Shown: positions 1 to 39,180 of the stretch, one piece after another
Layout: the number at the start of each line of letters is the position of its first letter
Position numbering within the stretch: the stretch's first letter is position 1
From: Mobula birostris
Lineage: Eukaryota
Length of the DNA: 64,000 bases
Direction: 5' to 3'
Assembly: GCF_030028105.1 (NCBI RefSeq)
Contig: NC_092377.1
Coordinates: forward strand, 21,448,782-21,512,781
Notes under the pieces: model-generated
What the model was told of the DNA's origin: nothing
Database searches by the model: none
Seen by the model: only the letters and a program-made list of their open reading frames with translations
Position numbers and translations under genes: made by a program

Positions 1-711
1 CATCCCTTAGGAAGCATGCGGTAAGGATTTCCTTTTCTAACTCGGACTGATTCTTTTATATCTATAAATTATAAACAGTTTATAGCTGCTTTTGTTAAAA
101 AACGTGTTAAATCTTAAAGACAATGTTGTTATCACTATTATAAAGGCTTTACTGCAAAGATACTTCTTTTACTGACGGGATTTCAATGAACCAAATCATT
201 CAAGAAGAAAACTACAGATGTAACAAATTGAGCAAAAACTGACAAGACTGTGGAAAGATTATTTGAGTGAGCGATGAATGGTTTCGGATATCTTTCTAGA
301 GGACCACAAAATCTTTTACTGGCAATATTAAGATCACAAGCCTTTTCAAAAGCAAACAAATGACATGTTTTCTACTGGAATATTACTGGCTTAAAATTTG
401 ACAAGGAAAATAAGAAATGTAAATACCAAAATAGTTTTATATCTGAACTGGATATATTCTGATAACATCTTTGAACATTTCAAACCTGCAGCAAGACAAA
501 CAACAGTGTAGTAGGAAATGTGCAGAATTTTGCAGTTGTTGTTTTGAAAAGGACTATATATAACGGACAGAGAAAACTGAAGGTGGTAGATAAAAAGGAT
601 CTCCGAAAACGATATCACAAAGCATTTGTTATTGGCGACGATAATAAAGATACTTTAATATAGTTACCTCAGCATACAGTTGTTGGATTAGTGAAATTGT
701 CCAGTAGAAAA

Positions 712-864
712 ATGGGCATCTCTGCCATCACTGAAGCAGAGAAAGTAAGTCTCCAAGGAGAGAAAGAAGACAGAGAGGAGTCTATTCTTGCTCTGCTGGG
801 GATCATAGGAACAATTCTGAATCTTCTAGTGATCATCTTTGTATACATCTATACTACGTTCTGA
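712..864 (+). CDS. TUNAR/megamind-family transmembrane microprotein (50 aa), nested antisense in a BIRC6 intron
   Basis: Manual translation: MGISAITEAEKVSLQGEKEDREESILALLGIIGTILNLLVIIFVYIYTTF*. The ATG is in strong Kozak context (aaaATGG). The C-terminal half is nearly identical to the recalled human TUNAR peptide (...EESVLAMLGIIGTILNLIVIIFVYIYTTL). The BIRC6-intronic antisense position matches zebrafish megamind (linc-birc6). Symbol left blank because this is probably the BIRC6-linked paralog rather than the TUNAR ortholog. Confidence 0.9.
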   Translation: MGISAITEAEKVSLQGEKEDREESILALLGIIGTILNLLVIIFVYIYTTF

Positions 865-926
865 ATGCTCAGAAGCTGATGAAAAGCAACAAACTAGCCC
901 CAAAAGTTCTTCAGAATACTTTCGTA

Positions 927-1030
927 TCATAAGACCATAAGATGCAGGAGCGGAGTTAGGCCATTTGGCCCATCGAGTCTGCTCTGCCATTTGATCATGG
1001 CTGATTTATTTTCCTTTTCAAACCCATAAG
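927..1030 (-). mobile_element. CR1 3' tail remnant
   Basis: cataagaccataaga repeat tail followed by ggccatttggcccatcgagtctgctc; resembles the other CR1 3' ends here (e.g. 32945). Confidence 0.7.
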
Positions 1031-2524
1031 ATGAAGCAATGAAAGGAATACTCAAAAATGCATTATCCGAACCTTGCAAAAACATCAATAATTAAGCAAC
1101 TGATTAAATAACATTGATAATGTGAAACAACTATCTTCAGTCATATCACTGGAATTTTGTTGCGAACTAACAGAACAGATGGGCATAAAACTGAGTGGGT
1201 GGAAGACAATCAAACTGCCAGAAAGGGACTGATGCCTAATATCAGTGAATTACAAATGATTTTACTACAATATTTAAAAATGAATGCAGCTGAAACTTTG
1301 AAAAATACATAGGCATCACAGAGACAATTGTACAAGCTTTTTCCACAATTTATCTGCAATATTTGGATTATCACCTTTCTCATCTGCAAAGCTTTAGAGC
1401 AAAAGCAAAGCAAAATGATTAAATGGCATGAAAGTTGTTCCAAACATTTGTTTTCAAATTATGTAAGATGTTTGTAATTTTTGTCCTAATATGGATACCT
1501 ACAATAATTTTCCCCCATTAATCTTATACAATCTACTGCTTGGAACATGTCTTCTATATTTTGATAAACTGATGGCTGTAATTTGTCACTTGGGACAATT
1601 CAATAAAACTCAGGCGGCTAAATTAGCCAATAACTTCAAAAATGTTAGTAAGTTACATGATTAAGTTTTAAAAGGCATACATTTGGAGATTATACCTCAA
1701 TAAAACAAATATAAATGTTCAGTGTGTCTGTGATCATAAATTAAGGAAAAATCTCATCATCTCTGTGAATGAGACATTCTCTGCAAATGAGATCATTTCT
1801 GCATTTTCAAAAGAAACCATCAAAGGGTATTTCTCAGTGGGGAATAGGATGCTTGAAGAATGAGTGGGATACCTCAATGCTTGATGTTGGGATATTACAT
1901 CTTCTAAGCTAGGGCATTAATTGACTCAAAAGATTTACCCTCATGATAATCTAAGAGGGACTGCAGAATTGGAACAGGAGGTAGATTAGAAAATGTTCAG
2001 AGTTGGAGGACTGGGCAAAGAGCAAGAGGAATATACTAACTACAAGGAAAAATGCACCTACTCTCTGAATGGTGGTGAAACAATAGGAAGCAACATTGAA
2101 AATGTCTTGGAAACTTCAGCAAAGCCACACTGCCCAACCGCTCCAATGCAACAAGATAAAAAAAATTGATATTGACTATTGAGATCTCAGCAGAAAATAT
2201 CAGGATTAAACTGTAGGGTATCCAATTTTGCTCAACTTATACAATGTAATTTGATACACCAGCATGGAATTTTAAAACAAAAGAAAACAGCTATGGAGAT
2301 ATTTGGATAGATGGCTGAAAATCTTGTTAATGATGAAGATTTTAACAATTGTCTTAAAAGTAGAATGTAGAATAGGAGATTTAAGGAAGGAATTCCAGAC
2401 TTTAGGGCTTTGGTAACTTAATGGCAAATAAATGATGAAATTGCTGACTATGTGGCCAAGTTTGCAGACAATATAAAGATAGGCGAAAGGGCAGGTAGTG
2501 TCGAGAAAGCAGAGAGTCTACAGA

Positions 2525-2561
2525 AGTCCTGACGAAGGGTATCGGCCTGAAACGTCGACTG
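2525..2561 (+). ncRNA. Minimal type I hammerhead ribozyme motif, intact core
   Basis: AGUC-CUGACGA-AGG(GUAUCGG)CCU-GAAA-CGUC/GACU: stem I AGUC/GACU, conserved core, palindromic ACGU in place of stem III. Confidence 0.75.
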
Positions 2562-2625
2562 TACCTCTTCCTAGAGATGCTGCCTGGCCTGCTGCGTTCA
2601 CCAGCAACTTTGATGTGTGTTGCTT
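2527..2625 (+). mobile_element. 99-bp Penelope-like terminal-repeat insert with a 13-bp flanking direct repeat
   Basis: gagtctacagaag at 2514-2526 and 2626-2638; the insert matches the repeat that follows the GIY-YIG ORF at 46766-46890. Confidence 0.85.
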
Positions 2626-4716
2626 GAGTCTACAGAAGGACTTATTAAGAGAATGGGCAAAGTGACAAATGGAATACAGTGTAGGGAAGTGTATGGTCAT
2701 GCATTTTAGTAGAAGGAATAAAGGCATAGACTATTTTCTAAACAGAAAGAAAATTCAAAAATCAGAGGTGCAAAGGGCCTTGGGAGTCTTCATGCAGGAT
2801 TCCCTAAAAGTTAGTTTTCAGGTCTAGTTACATTTACCACCAATGTTAGCATTTATTTCAAGAGAACTAAAATATAAAACAAGGATGTCATGCTGAGGCT
2901 TAGTAAGGTATTGGTCAGACCTCACTCAAAGTATTGTGAACGGTTTTGGGCCCCTTATCTAAGAAAAGATATGCTGGCATTGGAGAAGGTCCAGAGGAAG
3001 TCAACGAGAAAGATTCCAGGAATGAAAGGGTTAACCTATGAGGAGTGTTTGATGGCTCCAGTCTTGCACTGAACTTAGAAAAATGAAGGGGAATCTCAGT
3101 GAAACCTACTGAATATTGAAAGGTGTGGATATTGGAGAGGATGTTTTCTATGGTGCGGTGGGGGGGGATGGGGGAGTCTAGAACAAGAGGGCACACCTCA
3201 GAATAGAGGGACATTCTTTTAGAACAGAGATGAGGAGGAATTCCTTTAGCCAGAGGGTAGTAAATCTGTGGAATTCATTGCCACTGAAGGCTTTGGAAGC
3301 CAAGTCATTGAATATATTTAAAGTGGTGGTTGTTAAGTTCTTGATTAGTCAGGGCATCAAAGGTTACCGGGAGAAGGCAAGAGAATAGGGTTGATAAGAA
3401 TAATAAATCAGCCATGATGGAGTGGTGAGCAGACTTGTGGTCTAAATGAGGAGATTTTTTTTTTAAGGAAGGTGTGTGCTTTGAGTGAGCTAGCTCAGTA
3501 AAAACAGGGATGATGGTAAATAAAATATCAAGGTAAGAGTTGGCCCAGACAGCGGAAAGGGAGAGAGCAGCCGCAACAATGACATTTCAAAAAAAGACAA
3601 ACATCAGATATCTGACAGCCTTATAAACTTAATGTAGACTTCAACATTTTCAGTTGATTTTCACTTAGACCACTTTGTGTTTCTAAACATATCGGATCTT
3701 TGGCTTGTACATCAATTGCTTTGTCATTTAATATCTCCTCCAGAACATTAAAAGACCTTCTTGGAATCTTCACACCCTTCCACATTTTCTATATGCCACT
3801 CTAATTTCCAAAAAAAGTAAAATGCTGCAAATTCTGGAAATACGAATTAAAGACAGAAATCTGGGAAATACCAAATGAGTCAGGCAGCATCTGTGAACAG
3901 ATGAGAGTTAATGTTTCCAGTTGAAATATCAACCCATTACATTTTTGTCTTCATTGATCTGGTCTGATCTGCTGACTATTACCTGCATTTTCAGTTCTTC
4001 CTCTGTGGGTGCTTCCTGACCTGAGTTCATTCAGTACCTTCCTGTTGCAAATGTCTGAATATTTCACTTGCATTGGAAAAATTTGAAATTCTTGGTCCAT
4101 TTGATTCATTTTCCAGTAGTGTCATGCTTCACAAGCTTTTCACCACTGTCACCAGCCCCCACCCCCTTCATCTTATTAAAAAAGGAAGATTTGAGATGCT
4201 GGAAATATCAACAAGTGGAACAACATCCGTGAAGGGGGCCATCTTATCTTTTCAACTTGAAGATTTTACAAAGTCTTCATCACTCATCACAATGAAAGGT
4301 TATTAAACAAACACTGACTCATTTCTCTCCACAGGTGCTGCAGGTTATTTCCAGCATTTTCTCATTTAGTTTTATCTTTCTTTTTTTTTTAAATACAAGT
4401 GCTGACATTTGACATTCAGTGCAGGTTATGCAACAAATATGACATATGAAAGCATTTGTATTAAAAAAATTCTCGAAATTTCAAACAGAAATTGTTGGAC
4501 ATACATAAATTAGTCAGGTTTGCCAAGTAAAAAGGCATCAATTCCTCAGGATTTTCCTGAATCCAGTGTTGAAGCAGTACAAATATTAGAAATAGATCCA
4601 TTATGAAAAGGTTTCAAAGTAAAAATTGTATCAATTAAATTCTTAACTGGACATTTAGGAAATGTATAAAGTTGAGAACACAAGAAGTCTCTAATTTGTA
4701 AATATCTAAAAAAAAT

Positions 4717-5840
4717 TTGAGAAACACTCCGTTAGACAAATTTAAAAAAACCTCTGGGAACATGACCTCCAGATTTCAATTGATGAGGATACTTGGAATG
4801 AAAATTTTTTTTAAACTTGTTCACACCTCTTCATTATGTGCACGGCACTCTCTTTTACAATTTAAAGTGGTTCATAGAGCCTATATGACTAAAGATAAGC
4901 TCTCTCGTTTTTACTCAGATTTTTCTCCATACTGTAATAGGTGTAATGTCGAAGAGGCCTCTCTAAATCATATGTTTTGGTCCTGCCCGCGGCTTGATAA
5001 ATTTTGGGAAGAAGTATTTCAAACTTTCTCGGAGCTTTTTAAAGTAAACTTTAAACCCAACCATCTGACTGCCTTGTTTGGCATTGTTGGAGGAAATGAT
5101 TTTACTCTTAAGCCAAATTATTTGTGTATTTTGGCTTTTATTTCTCTTTTAGCCAGAAGAGTTTTGTTGCTGAAATGGGAAGATGCTGCTCCACCTACTC
5201 ATGCCCATTGGTTGATTGACGTTATGTCATGTTTAAATCTGGAGATGATTAGGTGTTCTATTTCTATACCTAAACAAGTATTTTTTCACATTATGGGGAC
5301 CCTAGAACATAGAACCATAGAACATTACAACACAGAAACAGGCCTTTTGGCCCTTCTTGGCTGTGCCGAACCATTTTTTTGCCTAGTCCCACTGACCTGC
5401 ACCTGGACCATATCCCCTCCATACGCCTCTCATCCATATACCTATCCAAGTTTTTCTTTTTTTTTGTAATTTATTTTTTTTTATTGAATTTCATCATCAA
5501 ACATTTCCATAAGATTTATTTCAGATACTGTACATATATAATCACTTCTTGGAACTACTTTCACAATTTTTGATTTGGGCAGCAATGATGATGGCTATTA
5601 TGTTTGAATTTACGACTATGTCAGAGATTTTTTTTCCCTTTTCTTTTAACCAAACAGCTGTTTTTTTTTCTCTCGCTGTTATTCTGTTTTGTTATGGAGT
5701 TTTGATTTTGCTTTAGATTAGAATAAGATATTTTTTCAATATTACGGTTAATTTACGATACATAGTTATGCGGCAATTCAATCTTGTTTCTGTTTCCATA
5801 ATATCATAATGCATTTTGTATTAGTCTATGCAAGTAATTA
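4717..5840 (+). mobile_element. L1-clade LINE 3' fragment (ORF2 C-terminal zinc-binding region plus 3' UTR) with nested inserts at ~5302-5545
   Basis: ORF 4717 contains QFKVVHRAY...CNRC...SLNHMFWSCP (zf-RVT-like) and ends taataaaaatattgaaaaa. An inverted CR1 tail and a T-rich inverted LINE tail interrupt it. Confidence 0.85.
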
Positions 5841-6739
5841 ATAAAAATATTGAAAAAGCAGTACAAACAGCAGAAACATTAACCTTGTATCTTCTCATAA
5901 GAGTGCTGTTTTACAGTACCATAATTTCTGGTTTTTATGTCTGCACATTGGAGTTAGAGCAGAAGAAACGCCTATGGAATATGCCCAAATGGAATTCAGT
6001 AAACTAACCTTCTGTATGCTAAATTCTTAAATATTCCCATGTGAGTTCAAATATGAATAACATTACATCACTATTTAAACAAGGAAGTACCACAAAAATA
6101 ACATTCATGAAAATGATGATTGGCCATTTACAAACAAGATTTTGAATATTCTTTGCAAAATGAACTTTATTGCTAGTCCCTGCAGGAACCACTACAACTG
6201 AATGAAGTACATAAATATTTTATCAGCCAAGGCGATGCATACTTAAAAAGCACAAATCCTTAGCACAGCACGGAGGCTCTAATTAGCTGCTGCTTAGCCA
6301 GTTTTAAAGGGAGGAATGTACTTGTGGACAACTTAACATTTTATACAAGTGTGGAAAACCTACTGGGCATCAGAACCAAGTGAAAACAAGAAAAGATTCA
6401 TGAAAAACAGAGCAGCGCTGTCACACCGAAGAGAAAATCAGTTATAATAAAAGTGATCGACAGATAACTGAATTCTAGTGTCAGCAGCAATACTGCAGAG
6501 GGAAAAGAAGATTATAAAACCTTTCAAAATTCAGTTTTAATTTCTTTCCACCCACAAGCAGAACAAAAAATTCCCAGGAAGATCCCAATGGCTTTGTTGC
6601 AAAATAATACCACCCCTTTGCAATGAGGTGAAACAGGATAAAAGAACACATAAAAGTTATGAGGTACGTGACATTGCTAATTTTATCCCATTTAATTAGA
6701 AAAAATCTAACGATAATATTTCAGTTCCAACTGATTCAA

Positions 6740-7410
6740 CAACTCTTGGTGATTCAAGAATCTTACATCCTGGTAAATTCTGCATCCTCTCTAAAGCTTC
6801 CATATCGCTCCTATAATGAGGTAACCAGAATAGAACACAATACTCCAAGTGTGGTCTCATCAGAGTTTTATAGAGCTGCAACATTACCACGCAGATCATA
6901 AACTCAGTCTCCAGAATAATAAAGGCCAACGCACAATACAGCTTCTTAACCATGCTATGAACTTGCGCGGTAACTTCTAGGGATCTATGGATGTGGACCA
7001 CAAGATTCCCGTTTCCACACTGCTAACAATCCTGCCATTAACCCTGTGCTCTTCCTTCAATTTTAACCTGCTAAAGTGCATCACTTCAGTCTTCTGCATT
7101 GAACTCCATCTGCCACTTCTCAGCCCATCTCTCCATCTTATCAATGTTCTGTTGAAAATCACCACAAACTTCAACACTATCCACACCACTAACTTTTCTG
7201 TGATCCTCAAACTTGCTACCCATCTTTCCGCTTCCTCACCAAATCATTTATGAAAATTGTAAAAAGCAGGGGCCTCAGAATAGAGCCCTGTGGAACACCA
7301 CTGATCACCAATCTCCAGGCAGAATATACTCTATATAGTACCACCCTCTGCCTTCTGTGGGCAAGCCAAATTTGAATCCATACAGTCAAGTTTCCCTGAA
7401 TCATCTTCTG
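6740..7410 (-). mobile_element. CR1 RT fragment
   Basis: [20 protein letters not shown] and LYKTLMRPHLEYCVLFW in the ORF track. Confidence 0.85.
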
Positions 7411-8399
7411 GCTGTTCAATTAAATAATCAATTGACTTTGAAGATTGCTCCAATGCTTTGTTGGACAAGTTTAACATTGAATCTCCTTATTTTTCAAGAT
7501 TTTGTGTGGCTTCAAAGTTAGTCTTATGATAACAAAATCTAAATTCCAAAACTATTGTTATAAACTCAAGCCAAAACCTTGTAGTCAAAAAATCATTGGA
7601 ATTTATAATGTTGCAAGGGTTTTAAAAAACAAATTCCCAATGAGAATACAAAGTAATTATTAAGCATTAATTATCAATTATGCTCAAAAGAGCAAAATGT
7701 TAAGGAGCCTGGCAATATGATATCCTGGCATAACAGTGGCACATCAGTGCCTCAGCAATCCACAGTGCTGACTTCAGCAGCAGATGTGAAAAGATCTGAA
7801 GTGTGACAAATCTGGAATTACGAAAACCCAACATGCATCTGTTGGTGAGCCTTCCCTGGTGGAAAATGTTGACTACCACCAGTAGAGGCATTGATAATTA
7901 CATGTTCTCCAAGGCCTGTGCCAAATTCACATGTATAAATTAGCAAGAATGTTTTGAGATTAATTATCTAGACATTCCATCCTAAACCATCAGGTGATCT
8001 TTCAGCCCGAATTGGTCATTAGTGAATACTTTAAAAAAATCTCAACTCAAGGTCAATGCCATGTAATCCTTCAGCACTTCATTAAAGGGTCTTTGAGTAT
8101 TTAAGCTCTGAATAATATGATGTGCAACTACTCATCAGGCTGTTGATGAGTAGGAAAAGCATGCTGGATTACTTCAACATGTATACCTACAATTTGAAGT
8201 GCCTGGCAGAGACATTCCATTCTCGTGAAAAAGCCAGAGAAAAGCCATATTTACCAGAGAAGCAAGTGTTTAACAGGAAGGAACTGAAGGCAGCAAGTTT
8301 TAGTTTGAAAAAAAAAACTGGAAAACTAAAGACCCCCTATGTTCTCCATCTTAATATTTTGAAAGATAATGACTAAGAACATTTTTCTTCTCATTTTTC

Positions 8400-9120
8400 A
8401 AGGTTCTGTAAATTTTGGAAGTGACTGTGGGTTGTAGGGTGGCAAATGTGACCTTACTACTTAAGAAGCAAGGGAGAGAGAAAACAGGGAATCACTGACC
8501 TGGTAGTTTAACATTAGTAGGAGGGAAGACAATGAGTGAAGGACATCACAGCAGAAAATCCTGCAAATCATAAGTTTGAGCAGATTCAGCACAAAGATGA
8601 GAGGAGAAATCATGCTTGACTAATTCACTGCAGTTATTTAAGGACATATGCTTGCACTGTGTCCTTTGTAGAACAAATGAAAAGCCAATGGATGCAGTGT
8701 ATTTGGATTTTGACGAGTCTGATGGTGAGTTACCATAAGACTGACTGAGTAAACTAGGCTGTATGTATTCCAGATGATTGAAGAGAACTCCCACTGAATA
8801 TACAAAGTTCTTAAAGACAGAGAATGGATGCAGCATGGATTTGTTTTAGCAGAGGAGTGTCAAATAAGATATCATCTGACAATAAAGGATAGGCAATTTA
8901 GGAGAGACAAGGAGAAATTTCTTTAGCAGAGGTGGTAAATGAGAATTCAACCAAGGAGGATTGTGAAAGTTTGGTCAGACTTCATGCAAAATGGGGATTT
9001 GTGGATGTTAAGGCGACATAAGGTACGAAGATAACACCTTGACAGAAGATCATTTATCATCTTGATGAATACTGGAGTATGCTTTAAGGTGAGCGAGTTA
9101 TTTCTGGTGACTGCTTCCAA
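8400..9120 (+). mobile_element. Old, highly degraded CR1 fragment
   Basis: DWRVANVT.L.KK-like, KSCLTN and AVYLDF-like remnants. Confidence 0.55.
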
Positions 9121-10799: not shown

Positions 10800-11170
10800 A
10801 AACACGAGGAATTCTGCAGATGCTGGAAATTCAAGCAACACACATCAAAGTTGCTGGTGAATGCAGCAGGCCAGGCAGCATTTCTAGGAAGAGGTACAGT
10901 CAACGTTTTGGGCCGAGACCCTTCGTCAGGACTAACTGAAGGAAGAGCTAGTAAGAGATTTGAAAGGGGGAGGGGGAGATCCAAAATGATAGGAGAAGAC
11001 AGGAGGGGGAGGGATGGAGCCAAGAGCTGGACAAGTGATTGGCAAAGGGGATATGAGAGGATCATGGGACAGGAGGCCCAGGGAAAAAGAAAAGGGGGAG
11101 GGAGGGAAAAACCCAGAGGATGGGCAAGGGGTATAGTCAGAGGGACAGAGGGAGAAAAAGGAGACAGAGA
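10800..11170 (-). mobile_element. Penelope-like terminal repeat with mutated hammerhead at 10897-10934
   Basis: Same family as 2527 and 13598. On the minus strand it reads agtc-ctgacga-agggtctcggccc-aaaa-cgtt-gactg (GAAA>AAAA, GUC>GUU). Confidence 0.85.
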
Positions 11171-11419
11171 TAACAACACTGCATTTACTGATATAGTAGT
11201 GACAGAAGAGGAGATTATGGCTGGATGGAGACTGCATTGTTAAAGAAAATGCAATCTTACTTTTCAGACATGGGTATTACTGGAAAGGTCACCATTTACT
11301 AGCACAGCAGTGATGGTAAACTAATTTCTTAAGCAGCAGCAATACTGCTAGTGAAGGTACTTCCACACTGCTGTTGCATAGGGTGTTCTAGAGTGTATAG
11401 ATTCAGCCGCATAAAGTAG

Positions 11420-12612: not shown

Positions 12613-13597
12613 TAATAAGGCTCTTTTACTTTTCCAGTACATTAGCAATAACTGTACTAATTATACATGTGTACAGGCAACAGTACCAGATATGCCAGAA
12701 TACATTGCAAGAGAATAATAAAACCAGAAGCGTAAACATACACTGCATAAAGAGGAAAGCACCAAATACCATCACGTAGTATTAAGAAACAGAAATGGCA
12801 TACTTAACAAGTCTAAAAAAAACTTTTACAGAAATTGATACACAAAATGACTTCCTAAGTATATTAAGTCTGCTCAATGTTGCATTACCCTAATATAATC
12901 AGTTCTTTGATCTAAAATCTGATTGAGAAAAGATCAAAATACATTGTATTTTGGCAACTATCTGTAAGGTAGAACTACTGTAATGTCTCTCATAAAGTTC
13001 CATTTTCTTGTTCCCTATCAATCGGATCGAGTTCTCAGTATTCTCAAGAGGGAAGGTGAGCAGCCAGATGTCATGGTCCATGTAGGGACCAATGATGTGG
13101 ATAGGAAGGAGGAGGAGGTCCTACAAAGAGAGTTTAGGGAGTTAGGTGCAAAGTTGAAGGACAGGACCTCCAGGGTTGCAATCTCAGGATTGCTACCCAT
13201 GCCACGTGCTAGTGAGGCTAGAAATAGGAAGATAATGCAGCTAAGTACATGGCTAAGGAGTTGGTGCAGGAGGGAGGGCTTCATGTTTCTGGACAATTGG
13301 GCCCTGTTCCATGGAAGGTGGGACCTGTTCCGACAGGATGGGTTGCACCAGAACTGGAGGGGGACTAACATCCTTGTGGGAATGTTTGCTAGTGCTGCTC
13401 CGGGGAGGGTAAAACTAGATTTGCAGGAGGAGGGGAACCAGAGTGTTAGAGCAGATAGTGAGGTGGAGGAGGATAAAGGTCATGCGAGAACTGCAAGTAT
13501 AGACAGAAATCAAAGGTTTGTACGAGATAGAAATGTTCTCAGGTGCATCTACTTCAATGCAAGGAGTATTGTAGGTAAGGCAGATGAGCTCAGGACA

Positions 13598-13730
13598 AAC
13601 AACAGGAATTCTGCAGATGCTGGAAATTCAAGCAACACACATCAAAGTTGCTGGTGAACGCAGCAGGCCAGGTAGCATCTGTAGGAAGAGGTGCAGTCGA
13701 CGTTTCAGGCCGAGACCCTTCGTCAGGACC
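13598..13730 (-). mobile_element. Short Penelope-like terminal-repeat insert in the CR1 ORF2 start
   Basis: Interrupts KADELRT|WIS; aggaca flanks both sides (13592-13597 and 13733-13738). Confidence 0.85.
13695..13730 (-). ncRNA. Minimal type I hammerhead ribozyme motif, intact core
   Basis: Minus strand: GGUC-CUGACGA-AGG(GUCUCGG)CCU-GAAA-CGUC/GACU. Confidence 0.75.
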
Positions 13731-37136: not shown

Positions 37137-37167
37137 CTGCAAAAATAGTACATATAAATTACAAAGA

Positions 37168-37360
37168 GAAAATCTACAGATGCTGAAAATCCAAGCAACA
37201 TACACACACAAAATGCTGGAGGAACTCAGCAGGCCAGGAAGCATCTATGGAAAAGAGTACAGTTGACGTTTCAGGCTGAGACTCTTCGTACAGTTCACTG
37301 TACTCTCTTCCATAGATGCTGCCGGGCTTGCTGAGTTTCTCCAACATTTTGTACGTGTTA
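37168..37360. mobile_element. Penelope-like terminal repeat in inverted (fold-back) arrangement
   Basis: Arms at ~37204-37263 and ~37297-37359 are reverse complements around a hammerhead remnant. Confidence 0.8.
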
Positions 37361-38114: not shown

Positions 38115-39180
38115 CAAATATGCACCTTCCAGGTGAGGCAACACTTCACCTGGAAATCTGTTGGGGTCGTCTACTGCAGTGGTCCCCAACCTCCGGGCCG
38201 CGGACCGATACCGATCCGTGAGGCATGCAGGAGTGCAGCGGTGGCTGAGACGCACCCAGCACATCGTTAAGAAAAAAGCTGAAATAAACAAGCTAATTAA
38301 TTACATGCTCAGCTTGATTATATCGACTTTTTTCTTAAAGATGTGCTGGGTGCGTCCCGGCTACCGCTGCACCCCCGCATGCTTCGCGGATCGGTATCGG
38401 TTCGAGGCCTGGAGGTTGGGGACCACTGGTCTACTGTATGTGGTGCTCCTGATGCAAACTCCTCTACATTGGTGTGTCCTGATATAGACTGGGGCACTGC
38501 TTTGTCCAACACCTCCACTTCACCTGAAAAAAGCAGGATTCCCAGGTGGACGACCGTTTTATTTCTTATCCCAATTCTCATTCTGTCATGTCGGTCCACG
38601 ACTTATACTTCTGCCACAATAAGACCGCTCCCAGCTTGAAGGAGCAACACCTCATATTCCATTTAGATAATGTTATGATGAGCCAAAACAACCAATGCCG
38701 ATTGGTCAGCTGACAAATCCCAAGCTGTCTTTCACTAATTGATCATGTTCTAATCAACGTCATCTTCTCTAGTGTAAACAGGCAGCCTCCAACCTGATCG
38801 TATGAACATCGATTTCTCCAATCTCTGGTAATTTTCCCCCCTCTTCCTTTCCTCTTCTTCCATTCACCACTCTGGCTCCCCTCTTACCTCTTCTCTTCTC
38901 CCCACCTGCCCGTCATCTCCCCCAGTACCAACCCCCACCTTTCTCCCATTGTCTACTCTCCGTTCTTATCAGATTCCTTCTCCAGCCTTTTACCTTTTCC
39001 CACTTAACACCTCCTAGCCTTTTACTTCATCCCCCTTCCTCTGCCCACCTGGCTTCACCTATCACCTTCTAGCTTGTCCTCCTCCTTGTTCCGGCATCTT
39101 CCCCCTTCCTTTCCATCGACTGTTTGTTTATTTCCATAAATGCTGCCTGGCTTGCTGAGTTCCTCTGGCATTTTGTATAT
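38115..39180 (+). mobile_element. Penelope-like GIY-YIG 3' fragment interrupted by a MITE
   Basis: TFQVRQHFTWKSVGVVYC|MITE|..., a pyrimidine-rich 3' region and the terminal repeat. Confidence 0.8.
38177..38428. mobile_element. Palindromic hAT MITE, 252 bp
   Basis: Termini cagtggtccccaacctcc...ggaggttggggaccactg; 8-bp TSD gtctactg at 38169-38176 and 38429-38436. Confidence 0.93.

What the first reader, a model, noticed from the sequence alone, without database searches (positions are those of the whole stretch)
2514..2638. 99-bp mobile insert that is essentially a hammerhead ribozyme plus tail, with a 13-bp duplication
Seen: gagtctacagaag is duplicated on both sides of an insert that begins just before CUGACGA and contains stem II, GAAA and CGUC/GACU; the predicted cleavage site is after 2556. 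The 5' strand of stem I is partly supplied by the duplicated target (AG+UC). Established: Penelope-like elements carry minimal hammerheads with a palindromic, loop-less stem III that cleave as dimers. Inference: a young, very small non-autonomous ribozyme-bearing retroelement family in this genome. This copy is on the microprotein strand ~1.7 kb downstream of its stop codon, so it could be co-transcribed.
Basis: partly seen in the sequence, partly recalled or inferred. Interest (0 to 1): 0.7.

Follow-up and report, generated by a model that had tools for sequence, protein, structure and literature searches.

The report
Penelope retrotransposon stub with hammerhead motif
This 99-base insert is the short end piece of a very abundant, full-size Penelope-like jumping gene that carries a known kind of predicted self-cutting RNA motif, not a tiny mobile family of its own; its one unusual trait, shared by about a fifth of sampled sister copies, is that it begins at the motif's front edge, which likely marks where the element's RNA starts.

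Summary
Observation confirmed: 99-bp insert (2527-2625), exact 13-bp duplication, complete minimal hammerhead core. The target is a dead LINE reverse transcriptase, whose paralogs carry the 13-mer once (10 of 12). The insert is 97-98% identical to both pseudo-LTRs of a 3.5-kb Penelope-like element with RT and GIY-YIG domains (Neptune/Nematis-type linker) in the same genome. The hammerhead pattern occurs 71,308 times (control 112). Short and long copies share subfamily letters, and 11 of 12 fetched copies with the insert's own loop variant are long, so there is no sign of a separate 99-bp master. Its 3' end is the tail-less one of the two known Penelope-type ends. Extra: 39 of 173 sampled copies start within -5..+4 of its first base; native upstream sequence is predicted to lock the core; rare duplication joints peak at the predicted cut (21 of 82), but almost as often at +36 (15). 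Cleavage and co-transcription with the upstream TUNAR microprotein are untested. The scan has noted this family, its fixed start and the cut-site joints before, on other DNA of this genome.

The parts
2514..2526 (+). Left copy of the 13-bp target-site duplication; its last AG doubles as element positions -2/-1 (microhomology)
2527..2625 (+). 99-bp stub of a Penelope-like element pseudo-LTR (element positions 0 to +98), tail-less 3' end
   Evidence: 97-98% identity to both pLTRs of L151; 3' end classes
2525..2560 (+). Minimal type I hammerhead motif: stem I AGUC/GACU, core CUGACGA, extra A, stem II of 4 bp, GAAAC-GUC with loop-less palindromic helix III; predicted cut after 2556
   Evidence: sequence; folding; pair counts; descriptor scan
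2626..2638 (+). Right copy of the 13-bp target-site duplication
2390..3450 (+). Decayed LINE reverse-transcriptase fragment that received the insert (ends approximate; 'CR1-type' is recalled, not tested)
   Evidence: both flanks align to an RVT_1-positive LINE frame from L032; repeat hits
13596..13729 (-). Sister stub starting at element position -1 and carrying the 3' tail, inserted in another LINE
10800..11173 (-). Longer sister copy: about 240 bases of 3' UTR, hammerhead motif and tail
712..864 (+).
   Evidence: Pfam PF21954, E 1.3e-19

Best explanation
The insert is a cut-short copy of the terminal repeat (pseudo-LTR) of a very abundant 3.5-kb Penelope-like retrotransposon, likely made when the element's enzyme nicked a dead LINE, began copying at an internal site about 100 bases into the element's RNA, and likely ran off the RNA's front end at the first base of the hammerhead motif. 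Shown: identity with the pLTRs of an RT + GIY-YIG element, the target-site duplication, two 3' end classes (with and without tail), and a sharp cluster of 5' ends at -2/-1. Inferred: target-primed internal initiation (by analogy with Anolis PAc, PMC11167929), an uncut RNA as template (the copy spans the cut site), and -2 being the RNA's 5' end. Predicted only: the hammerhead folds when the RNA starts at -2 and is locked by upstream pLTR sequence in the 3' repeat. The copy is most likely an inert insertion product. Identity about 0.95; the run-off step about 0.5.
For: L151 is a textbook element: inverted 5'-truncated copy, pLTR with hammerhead, tail, ORF to a GIY-YIG end and a second pLTR, with 3,514 bases from hammerhead to hammerhead; the insert matches 97.98% and 96.9%. 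The L031 frame of 758 codons gives RVT_1 E 0.003 and GIY-YIG E 4e-4, both below the curated cut-offs, and shows DKG, CX4CXXC and CCHH motifs. In 143 evenly spaced 10-kb stretches (1.42 Mb) there are 182 copies of 30 bp or more. Their 3' ends fall mostly near +93..+105 or +114..+139, the tail signature of PMC11167929 and PMC8557442. Their 5' ends lie in -5..+4 in 39 of 173, against 36 in the 88 flanking positions (p 2e-19). Genome-wide, a purine replaces the element base just before A(-2) 5,794 times, against 978 one base further up and 923 at -7. Starts at the cut site are not enriched (1 of 22). G before A(-2) is 62% against 53.5% in controls (107 of 200 listed; p 0.012), a weak hint of a copied cap. 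Mean stem I probability in 32 young long copies is 0.08 with native upstream, 0.33 with shuffled upstream and 0.51 when starting at -2. In 8 of 8 fetched loci with a joint at the cut site, the extra piece does not reach upstream of -3, whereas 88 of 145 ordinary copies start upstream of -5.
Against: No RNA start was observed: the runs were contigs, RNA only by guess, and gave no begin or end sites. The 5' cluster is broad in young copies (-12..+12) and many of these are head-to-head fold-backs, which a cDNA hairpin at this spot could also produce. The peak is carried mostly by older copies (33 of 115 old, 6 of 58 young), whose upstream reference panel was small (10 long copies plus 2 references). 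The lock is not seen in 26 old copies (0.42 native vs 0.35 shuffled). The G excess is small and fold-back microhomology could add to it. No pair shows a recurrent two-sided compensatory change. Slippage on one molecule also explains the 8 of 8.
Confidence: 0.8

Rival explanations
1. Same element, but the 5' ends cluster because reverse transcriptase stalls or folds back at RNA/cDNA structure (hammerhead stem I or the upstream hairpin) on a longer RNA. The stub is then ordinary structure-guided 5' truncation from the 3' pLTR.
For: The predicted hairpin of upstream UCAG with the core CUGA has its loop at -4..+1. Of 32 copies starting at -5..+1, 13 have an inverted partner. AGTC and GACT are complementary, so a fold-back is easy.
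Against: The step is sharp at A(-2), about six-fold over neighbouring positions. It persists in old subfamilies whose upstream sequence differs and shows little lock. There is a slight extra-G excess.
Confidence: 0.3
2. One reading: a separate, very small non-autonomous family (retrozyme- or SINE-like) with its own 99-bp master that is copied by the Penelope enzyme.
For: In the sample, 9 of 173 copies are short, tail-less and without an inverted partner, like this one. A match of 8 nt or more flanks 15 of 76 non-inverted copies against a shuffled mean of 0.4. Non-autonomous PLE derivatives are described (PMC8557442 passages; bioRxiv 10.64898/2026.07.22.740005).
Against: No private letters in short copies at 16 diagnostic positions (14 short, 32 long young copies). 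11 of 12 fetched copies with the insert's loop variant extend beyond -30. Short and long copies split alike between the two 3' classes (21:33 and 19:31). The insert is a single unit, not a tandem; head-to-tail joints of the 99-mer are rare (8 matches).
Confidence: 0.05
3. The boundary is a splice acceptor: the pLTR has a pyrimidine tract and YAG just before position 0, and stubs are copies of spliced RNA with a very short first exon, as the intron end of D. virilis Penelope meets helix I.
For: YAG precedes position 0 in 31 of 31 young and 18 of 27 old long copies. PMC4209133 places the D. virilis intron end at the 5' end of helix I; PMC2377424 describes that intron and an internal promoter.
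Against: None of 89 copies lacking the young upstream 9-mer joins one of the element's own donor-like sites to position 0. YAG is also what stem I pairing requires, and the whole 3' UTR is pyrimidine-rich. PLEs are reported to retain introns (PMC8557442).
Confidence: 0.1
4. This copy is a functional, co-transcribed ribozyme that trims or regulates the TUNAR transcript.
For: Same strand as the TUNAR ORF, 1,663 bases downstream. In its LINE context stems I and II are predicted to form (P 0.3-0.9).
Against: Six AATAAA/ATTAAA sites lie upstream of it. It sits inside a dead LINE. It is a lone copy; a single S. mansoni min-HHR did not cleave (PMC4209133) and the Anolis one needed the element's protein (PMC11167929). 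With about one intact pattern per 56 kb, a copy near a gene is expected.
Confidence: 0.05

Closest known systems
Minimal hammerheads (min-HHR) in pLTRs of metazoan Penelope-like elements, including fish Xena/Poseidon/Neptune (Cervera and De la Pena 2014, PMC4209133; parts 1-2 of 4 read)
   Same: Short stem I (4-5 bp), unpaired base between positions 9 and 10.1, loop-less palindromic helix III, position in the pLTR, mostly single copies from truncated elements.
   Different: Far more copies (71,308 exact patterns against about 4,000-9,000 reported for coelacanth and Xenopus). Stem II has only 4 bp. The youngest subfamily has G-U instead of G-C at 10.1-11.1 (53 of 126 copies).
Endonuclease-bearing Penelope-like elements, Neptune/Nematis type (Craig et al. 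2021, PMC8557442; passages read)
   Same: Single RT + C-terminal GIY-YIG ORF, Zn-finger-like linker CX4CXXC, CCHH, partial tandem pLTR, inverted 5'-truncated copy, optional 30-40 bp tail, heavy 5' truncation.
   Different: The fixed 5' boundary at the hammerhead edge was not in the passages read. Neptune versus Nematis was not resolved (no tree).
Poseidon element PAc of Anolis carolinensis (Frangieh et al. 2024, PMC11167929; parts 1-2 of 4 read)
   Same: Two 3' end classes about 35 nt apart downstream of the hammerhead, matching two internal initiation sites; uncut RNA as the main template.
   Different: Other clade. Here the long ORF starts downstream of the tail, not at stem II. No biochemistry exists for this element.
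Animal non-LTR retrozymes (bioRxiv 10.64898/2026.07.22.740005; part 1 of 5 and passages read, supplements closed)
   Same: Type I hammerhead related to PLE pLTRs, non-coding, dispersed monomers exist.
   Different: Retrozymes are defined there as tandem units with hammerheads in consecutive repeats and their own consensus. This insert is a single unit identical to an autonomous pLTR.

Membership tests
EN+ Penelope-like element (parent element) | Single ORF with RT and C-terminal GIY-YIG endonuclease | tested here: met
   758- and 798-codon open frames; RVT_1 E 0.003 and GIY-YIG E 4e-4, both under the curated cut-offs
EN+ Penelope-like element (parent element) | Pseudo-LTRs from partial tandems, often an inverted 5'-truncated copy | tested here: met
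   L151 has both; L152 has a partial tandem
EN+ Penelope-like element (parent element) | Optional 30-40 bp tail at one end | tested here: met
   two 3' end classes; the tail continues into the ORF leader in L151 and L152
Neptune/Nematis clades | CX2-5CxxC linker between RT and EN, CCHH in EN | tested here: met
   CKRNKCYTC linker and the CxxC...H...H endonuclease read in the frames
Neptune/Nematis clades | Placement in the RT phylogeny | not tested
   no reference set fetched, no tree built
Minimal hammerhead of PLEs | Conserved core CUGANGA and GAAA-N-N-UH with stems I and II, palindromic helix III, extra base after position 9 | tested here: met
   descriptor gave 25 hits in 1.42 Mb, all this family, and 0 in 10 shuffles; the G10-Y21 register pairs in 119 of 126 copies, the A9 register in 57 of 123
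Minimal hammerhead of PLEs | Compensatory changes in stems | tested here: inconclusive
   only one-sided, pair-keeping changes recur (G-C/G-U, U-G/C-G, U-G/U-A); none two-sided
Minimal hammerhead of PLEs | Self-cleavage after GUC, as dimer or with protein help | not testable with these tools
   indirect only: 21 of 82 duplication joints end at +29, 15 at +36 (counted by hand)
Non-LTR retrozyme / small non-autonomous family | Tandem units with hammerheads in consecutive repeats | tested here: not met
   single unit between the duplications; 8 head-to-tail joints of the tail-less end in the genome
Non-LTR retrozyme / small non-autonomous family | Own master sequence distinct from the autonomous element | tested here: not met

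The most novel reading that the evidence does not exclude
The element's RNA starts, capped, at the first base of the hammerhead, so the 99- and 135-base stubs are strong-stop-like run-off cDNAs primed at the two internal sites of the 5' repeat. The pLTR works as a positional switch: the ribozyme folds only at the RNA's 5' end and is locked by upstream sequence in the 3' repeat. When it cuts, it frees a 32-nt leader whose 3' end is recorded in rare duplication joints. Tens of thousands of genomic copies would then map the start, the initiation sites and the in vivo cut of a Penelope-like RNA.
Probability: 0.3. Interest if true: 0.6.

Novelty: new member of a known kind. Interest (0 to 1): 0.3.

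Why it matters
As an object it is ordinary: one of an estimated half a million fragments of a Penelope-like element (182 in 1.42 Mb, extrapolated). The family matters as a natural data set. What PLE hammerheads do, and how pseudo-LTRs and tails arise, is open (PMC4209133, PMC11167929, PMC8557442). The fixed start at -2, the predicted upstream lock and the joints at +29 give three cheap, position-exact tests of whether the ribozyme cuts in vivo and where the RNA begins.

Tried and rejected
Rfam scan of 1-6000: no hammerhead family, one chance miRNA hit. Free folding of the motif is no better than shuffles (z -0.21 to +0.98), as expected for a motif with an unpaired core; it is not used as evidence. 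An all-against-all boundary call was dropped because head-to-head copies align to each other upstream; it was replaced by a sense-strand panel, which also drops edge-clipped copies (173 of 182 kept). The many GAAG-preceded copies among the top 30 hits come from flank letters in my query and were not used. Sequencing runs: no RNA holder listed on record; contigs of four related organisms hold the element, but give no start, end or strand. One contig joint returns to +30 and is anecdotal. No splice joint into position 0 among the joints shown (48 more not shown). Head-to-tail joints from the tail-less end: 7 loci, 2 restart at +29/+30, too few to judge. A second start at -6 is not supported (923 matches, 51 G of 100 listed). 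Pfam found nothing on the 30-residue left LINE flank alone. Transcription of the TUNAR-to-insert stretch was not tested. Paper searches for this family or for a fixed 5' start found no paper on it; subscription journals and Repbase were not searchable, and the bioRxiv supplements, which list a chondrichthyan retrozyme family, were closed.

Full report
Numbering: position 0 is window 2527, the first base of the insert; -2 is 2525 and the predicted cut lies after +29 (2556).

Observation. The 13-mer at 2514-2526 recurs exactly at 2626-2638 around 99 bases. All core bases of a minimal type I hammerhead are in place. The pattern occurs twice in the window and never in 100 shuffles, and 71,308 times in the 4.0-Gb genome against 112 for the reversed control. 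The flanks are a decayed LINE reverse transcriptase: both align to an RVT_1-positive frame, and 10 of 12 paralogs spanning the site carry the 13-mer once. The duplication is therefore real.

What it is part of. The best genome hits run on beyond both ends of the insert. Upstream lie about 420 bases of pyrimidine-rich 3' UTR and the end of a GIY-YIG frame; downstream lies a 35-base tail. Locus L151 holds a whole element: an inverted truncated copy (807-1351), a 5' pLTR with the hammerhead (1424), the tail, a coding region ending at 4637 and a 3' pLTR (4938) without tail. The unit is 3,514 bases and the insert matches its two repeats at 97.98% and 96.9%. A 758-codon frame in L031 gives RVT_1 (E 0.003) and GIY-YIG (E 4e-4), both below Pfam's cut-offs, with DKG, CX4CXXC and CCHH motifs. 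By PMC8557442 (passages read) this is the anatomy of an endonuclease-bearing Penelope-like element of Neptune/Nematis type. The host is a vertebrate (TUNAR); 'cartilaginous fish, likely a ray' is recalled and echoed by earlier notes, not tested.

Unbiased sample. I fetched 143 evenly spaced 10-kb stretches from eight large contigs (1,419,800 bases). They hold 182 copies of 30 bp or more, 61 of them at least 90% identical. That extrapolates to about 0.5 million and 0.17 million (head-to-head pairs count twice). A structure descriptor found 25 minimal hammerheads, all of this family, and none in 10 shuffles. Among 110 older copies the share of minority letters is 0.06 in the non-CpG core, 0.08 in the stems and 0.26 in the adjacent linker; positions 49-67 and 102-118 are kept about as well as the stems, so conservation is not special to the ribozyme. 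Pair counts support the register with an extra A (119 of 126 paired against 57 of 123) and show only one-sided changes.

Not a family of its own. Short copies (start -8..+12) and long copies (start upstream of -50) show the same letters at 16 diagnostic positions and the same split of 3' ends, 21:33 and 19:31. The insert's rare loop variant occurs 26 times as an exact 35-mer; of 12 fetched, 11 extend beyond -30. Head-to-tail joints of the tail-less end are rare (8 matches). Only 9 of 173 sampled copies are short, tail-less and unpaired like this one.

How it was likely made. The 3' ends fall in two classes, near +93..+105 and +114..+139. In Anolis PAc two internal initiation sites produce this tail signature, and uncut RNA is the main template (PMC11167929, parts 1-2 read). 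The insert belongs to the tail-less class and spans the cut site, so its template was uncut or resealed (inference). The 5' ends cluster: 39 of 173 at -5..+4 against 36 in 88 flanking positions, with no excess at the cut (1 of 22). The peak is stronger in old copies (33 of 115) than in young ones (6 of 58). Genome-wide, a purine stands before A(-2) 5,794 times, but only 978 times one base further up and 923 times at -7. G makes up 62% of these against 107 of 200 in the two controls (p 0.012), a weak hint of a copied cap. TTAGTC at this spot resembles an initiator (recalled), and D. virilis Penelope has an internal promoter in its pLTR (PMC2377424, abstract and section 14 read). I therefore favour run-off at the RNA's 5' end (about 0.5) over stalling at structure (0.3) or a splice boundary (0.1; no spliced joint in 89 copies).

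The ribozyme. Folding predicts that native upstream sequence pairs with the core (0.79 in L151) and abolishes stems I and II, while an RNA starting at -2 forms them (0.6-0.96). Over 32 young long copies, mean stem I probability is 0.08 native, 0.33 with shuffled upstream and 0.51 from -2; 26 old copies show no clear effect. Prompted by earlier notes, I searched for short duplications ending between +26 and +47: 144 matches, 100 listed, 82 loci after merging tandem and duplicated rows, counted by hand. Of these, 21 end at +29 (5 with microhomology), 8 more are ambiguous, 15 end at +36, 9 at +28 and 8 at +32. Both +29 and +36 exceed a uniform spread, so cutting is suggested, not shown. In 8 of the 21 loci, chosen for a restart at -2, the extra piece never reaches upstream of -3. 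That fits a freed 32-nt leader, but also slippage on one molecule. A single S. mansoni min-HHR did not cleave and dimers cleaved weakly (PMC4209133, parts 1-2 read), so this lone copy is probably silent.

Host gene. The ORF at 712-864 is the TUNAR microprotein (PMC8758570 seen as a search listing only). The insert lies 1,663 bases downstream, inside a dead LINE and behind six AATAAA/ATTAAA sites. Co-transcription was not tested.

Other papers seen: PMC6155905 (passages) and bioRxiv 10.64898/2026.07.22.740005 (part 1 of 5 and passages; supplements closed).

Verdict. Real feature, known kind: a stub of a Penelope-like pLTR with a minimal hammerhead. The small-family claim fails. The fixed start, the predicted lock and the cut-site joints are testable leads on an open mechanism, and the scan had already noted the first and the third elsewhere in this genome. 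Interest 0.3.

Noticed in passing
window 712-864 (+): The 50-codon ORF is the TUNAR microprotein (Pfam PF21954, E 1.3e-19); a repeat begins right after its stop.
   Followed up: partly
element position +5 in older copies (e.g. L049, L153, L198): 10 of 64 older copies have C instead of the core A of CUGA, which looks like an older subfamily with an altered core.
   Followed up: no
genome-wide duplication joints: A second peak of joints at +35/+36 (21 of 82), just past stem I, has no explanation; several joints carry an extra G before the restart.
   Followed up: partly
window 2577-2627 (+), element +50..+100: A 16-codon open frame starts inside the pLTR and stops at the tail boundary; positions 49-67 are as conserved as the hammerhead stems.
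   Followed up: no
window 37164-37359 and 38177-38428: Two fold-back (self-inverted) stretches; the first is made of older copies of this element.
   Followed up: no
L030 (G000:C16:34858245-34861347): An independent stub of the same element sits in a paralog of the same LINE about 40 bases downstream of the homologous site, with its own duplication.
   Followed up: no
L022, L025, L028 5' junctions: Short extra pieces, some copied from the target, lie between the duplication and the AG start of the stub.
   Followed up: no
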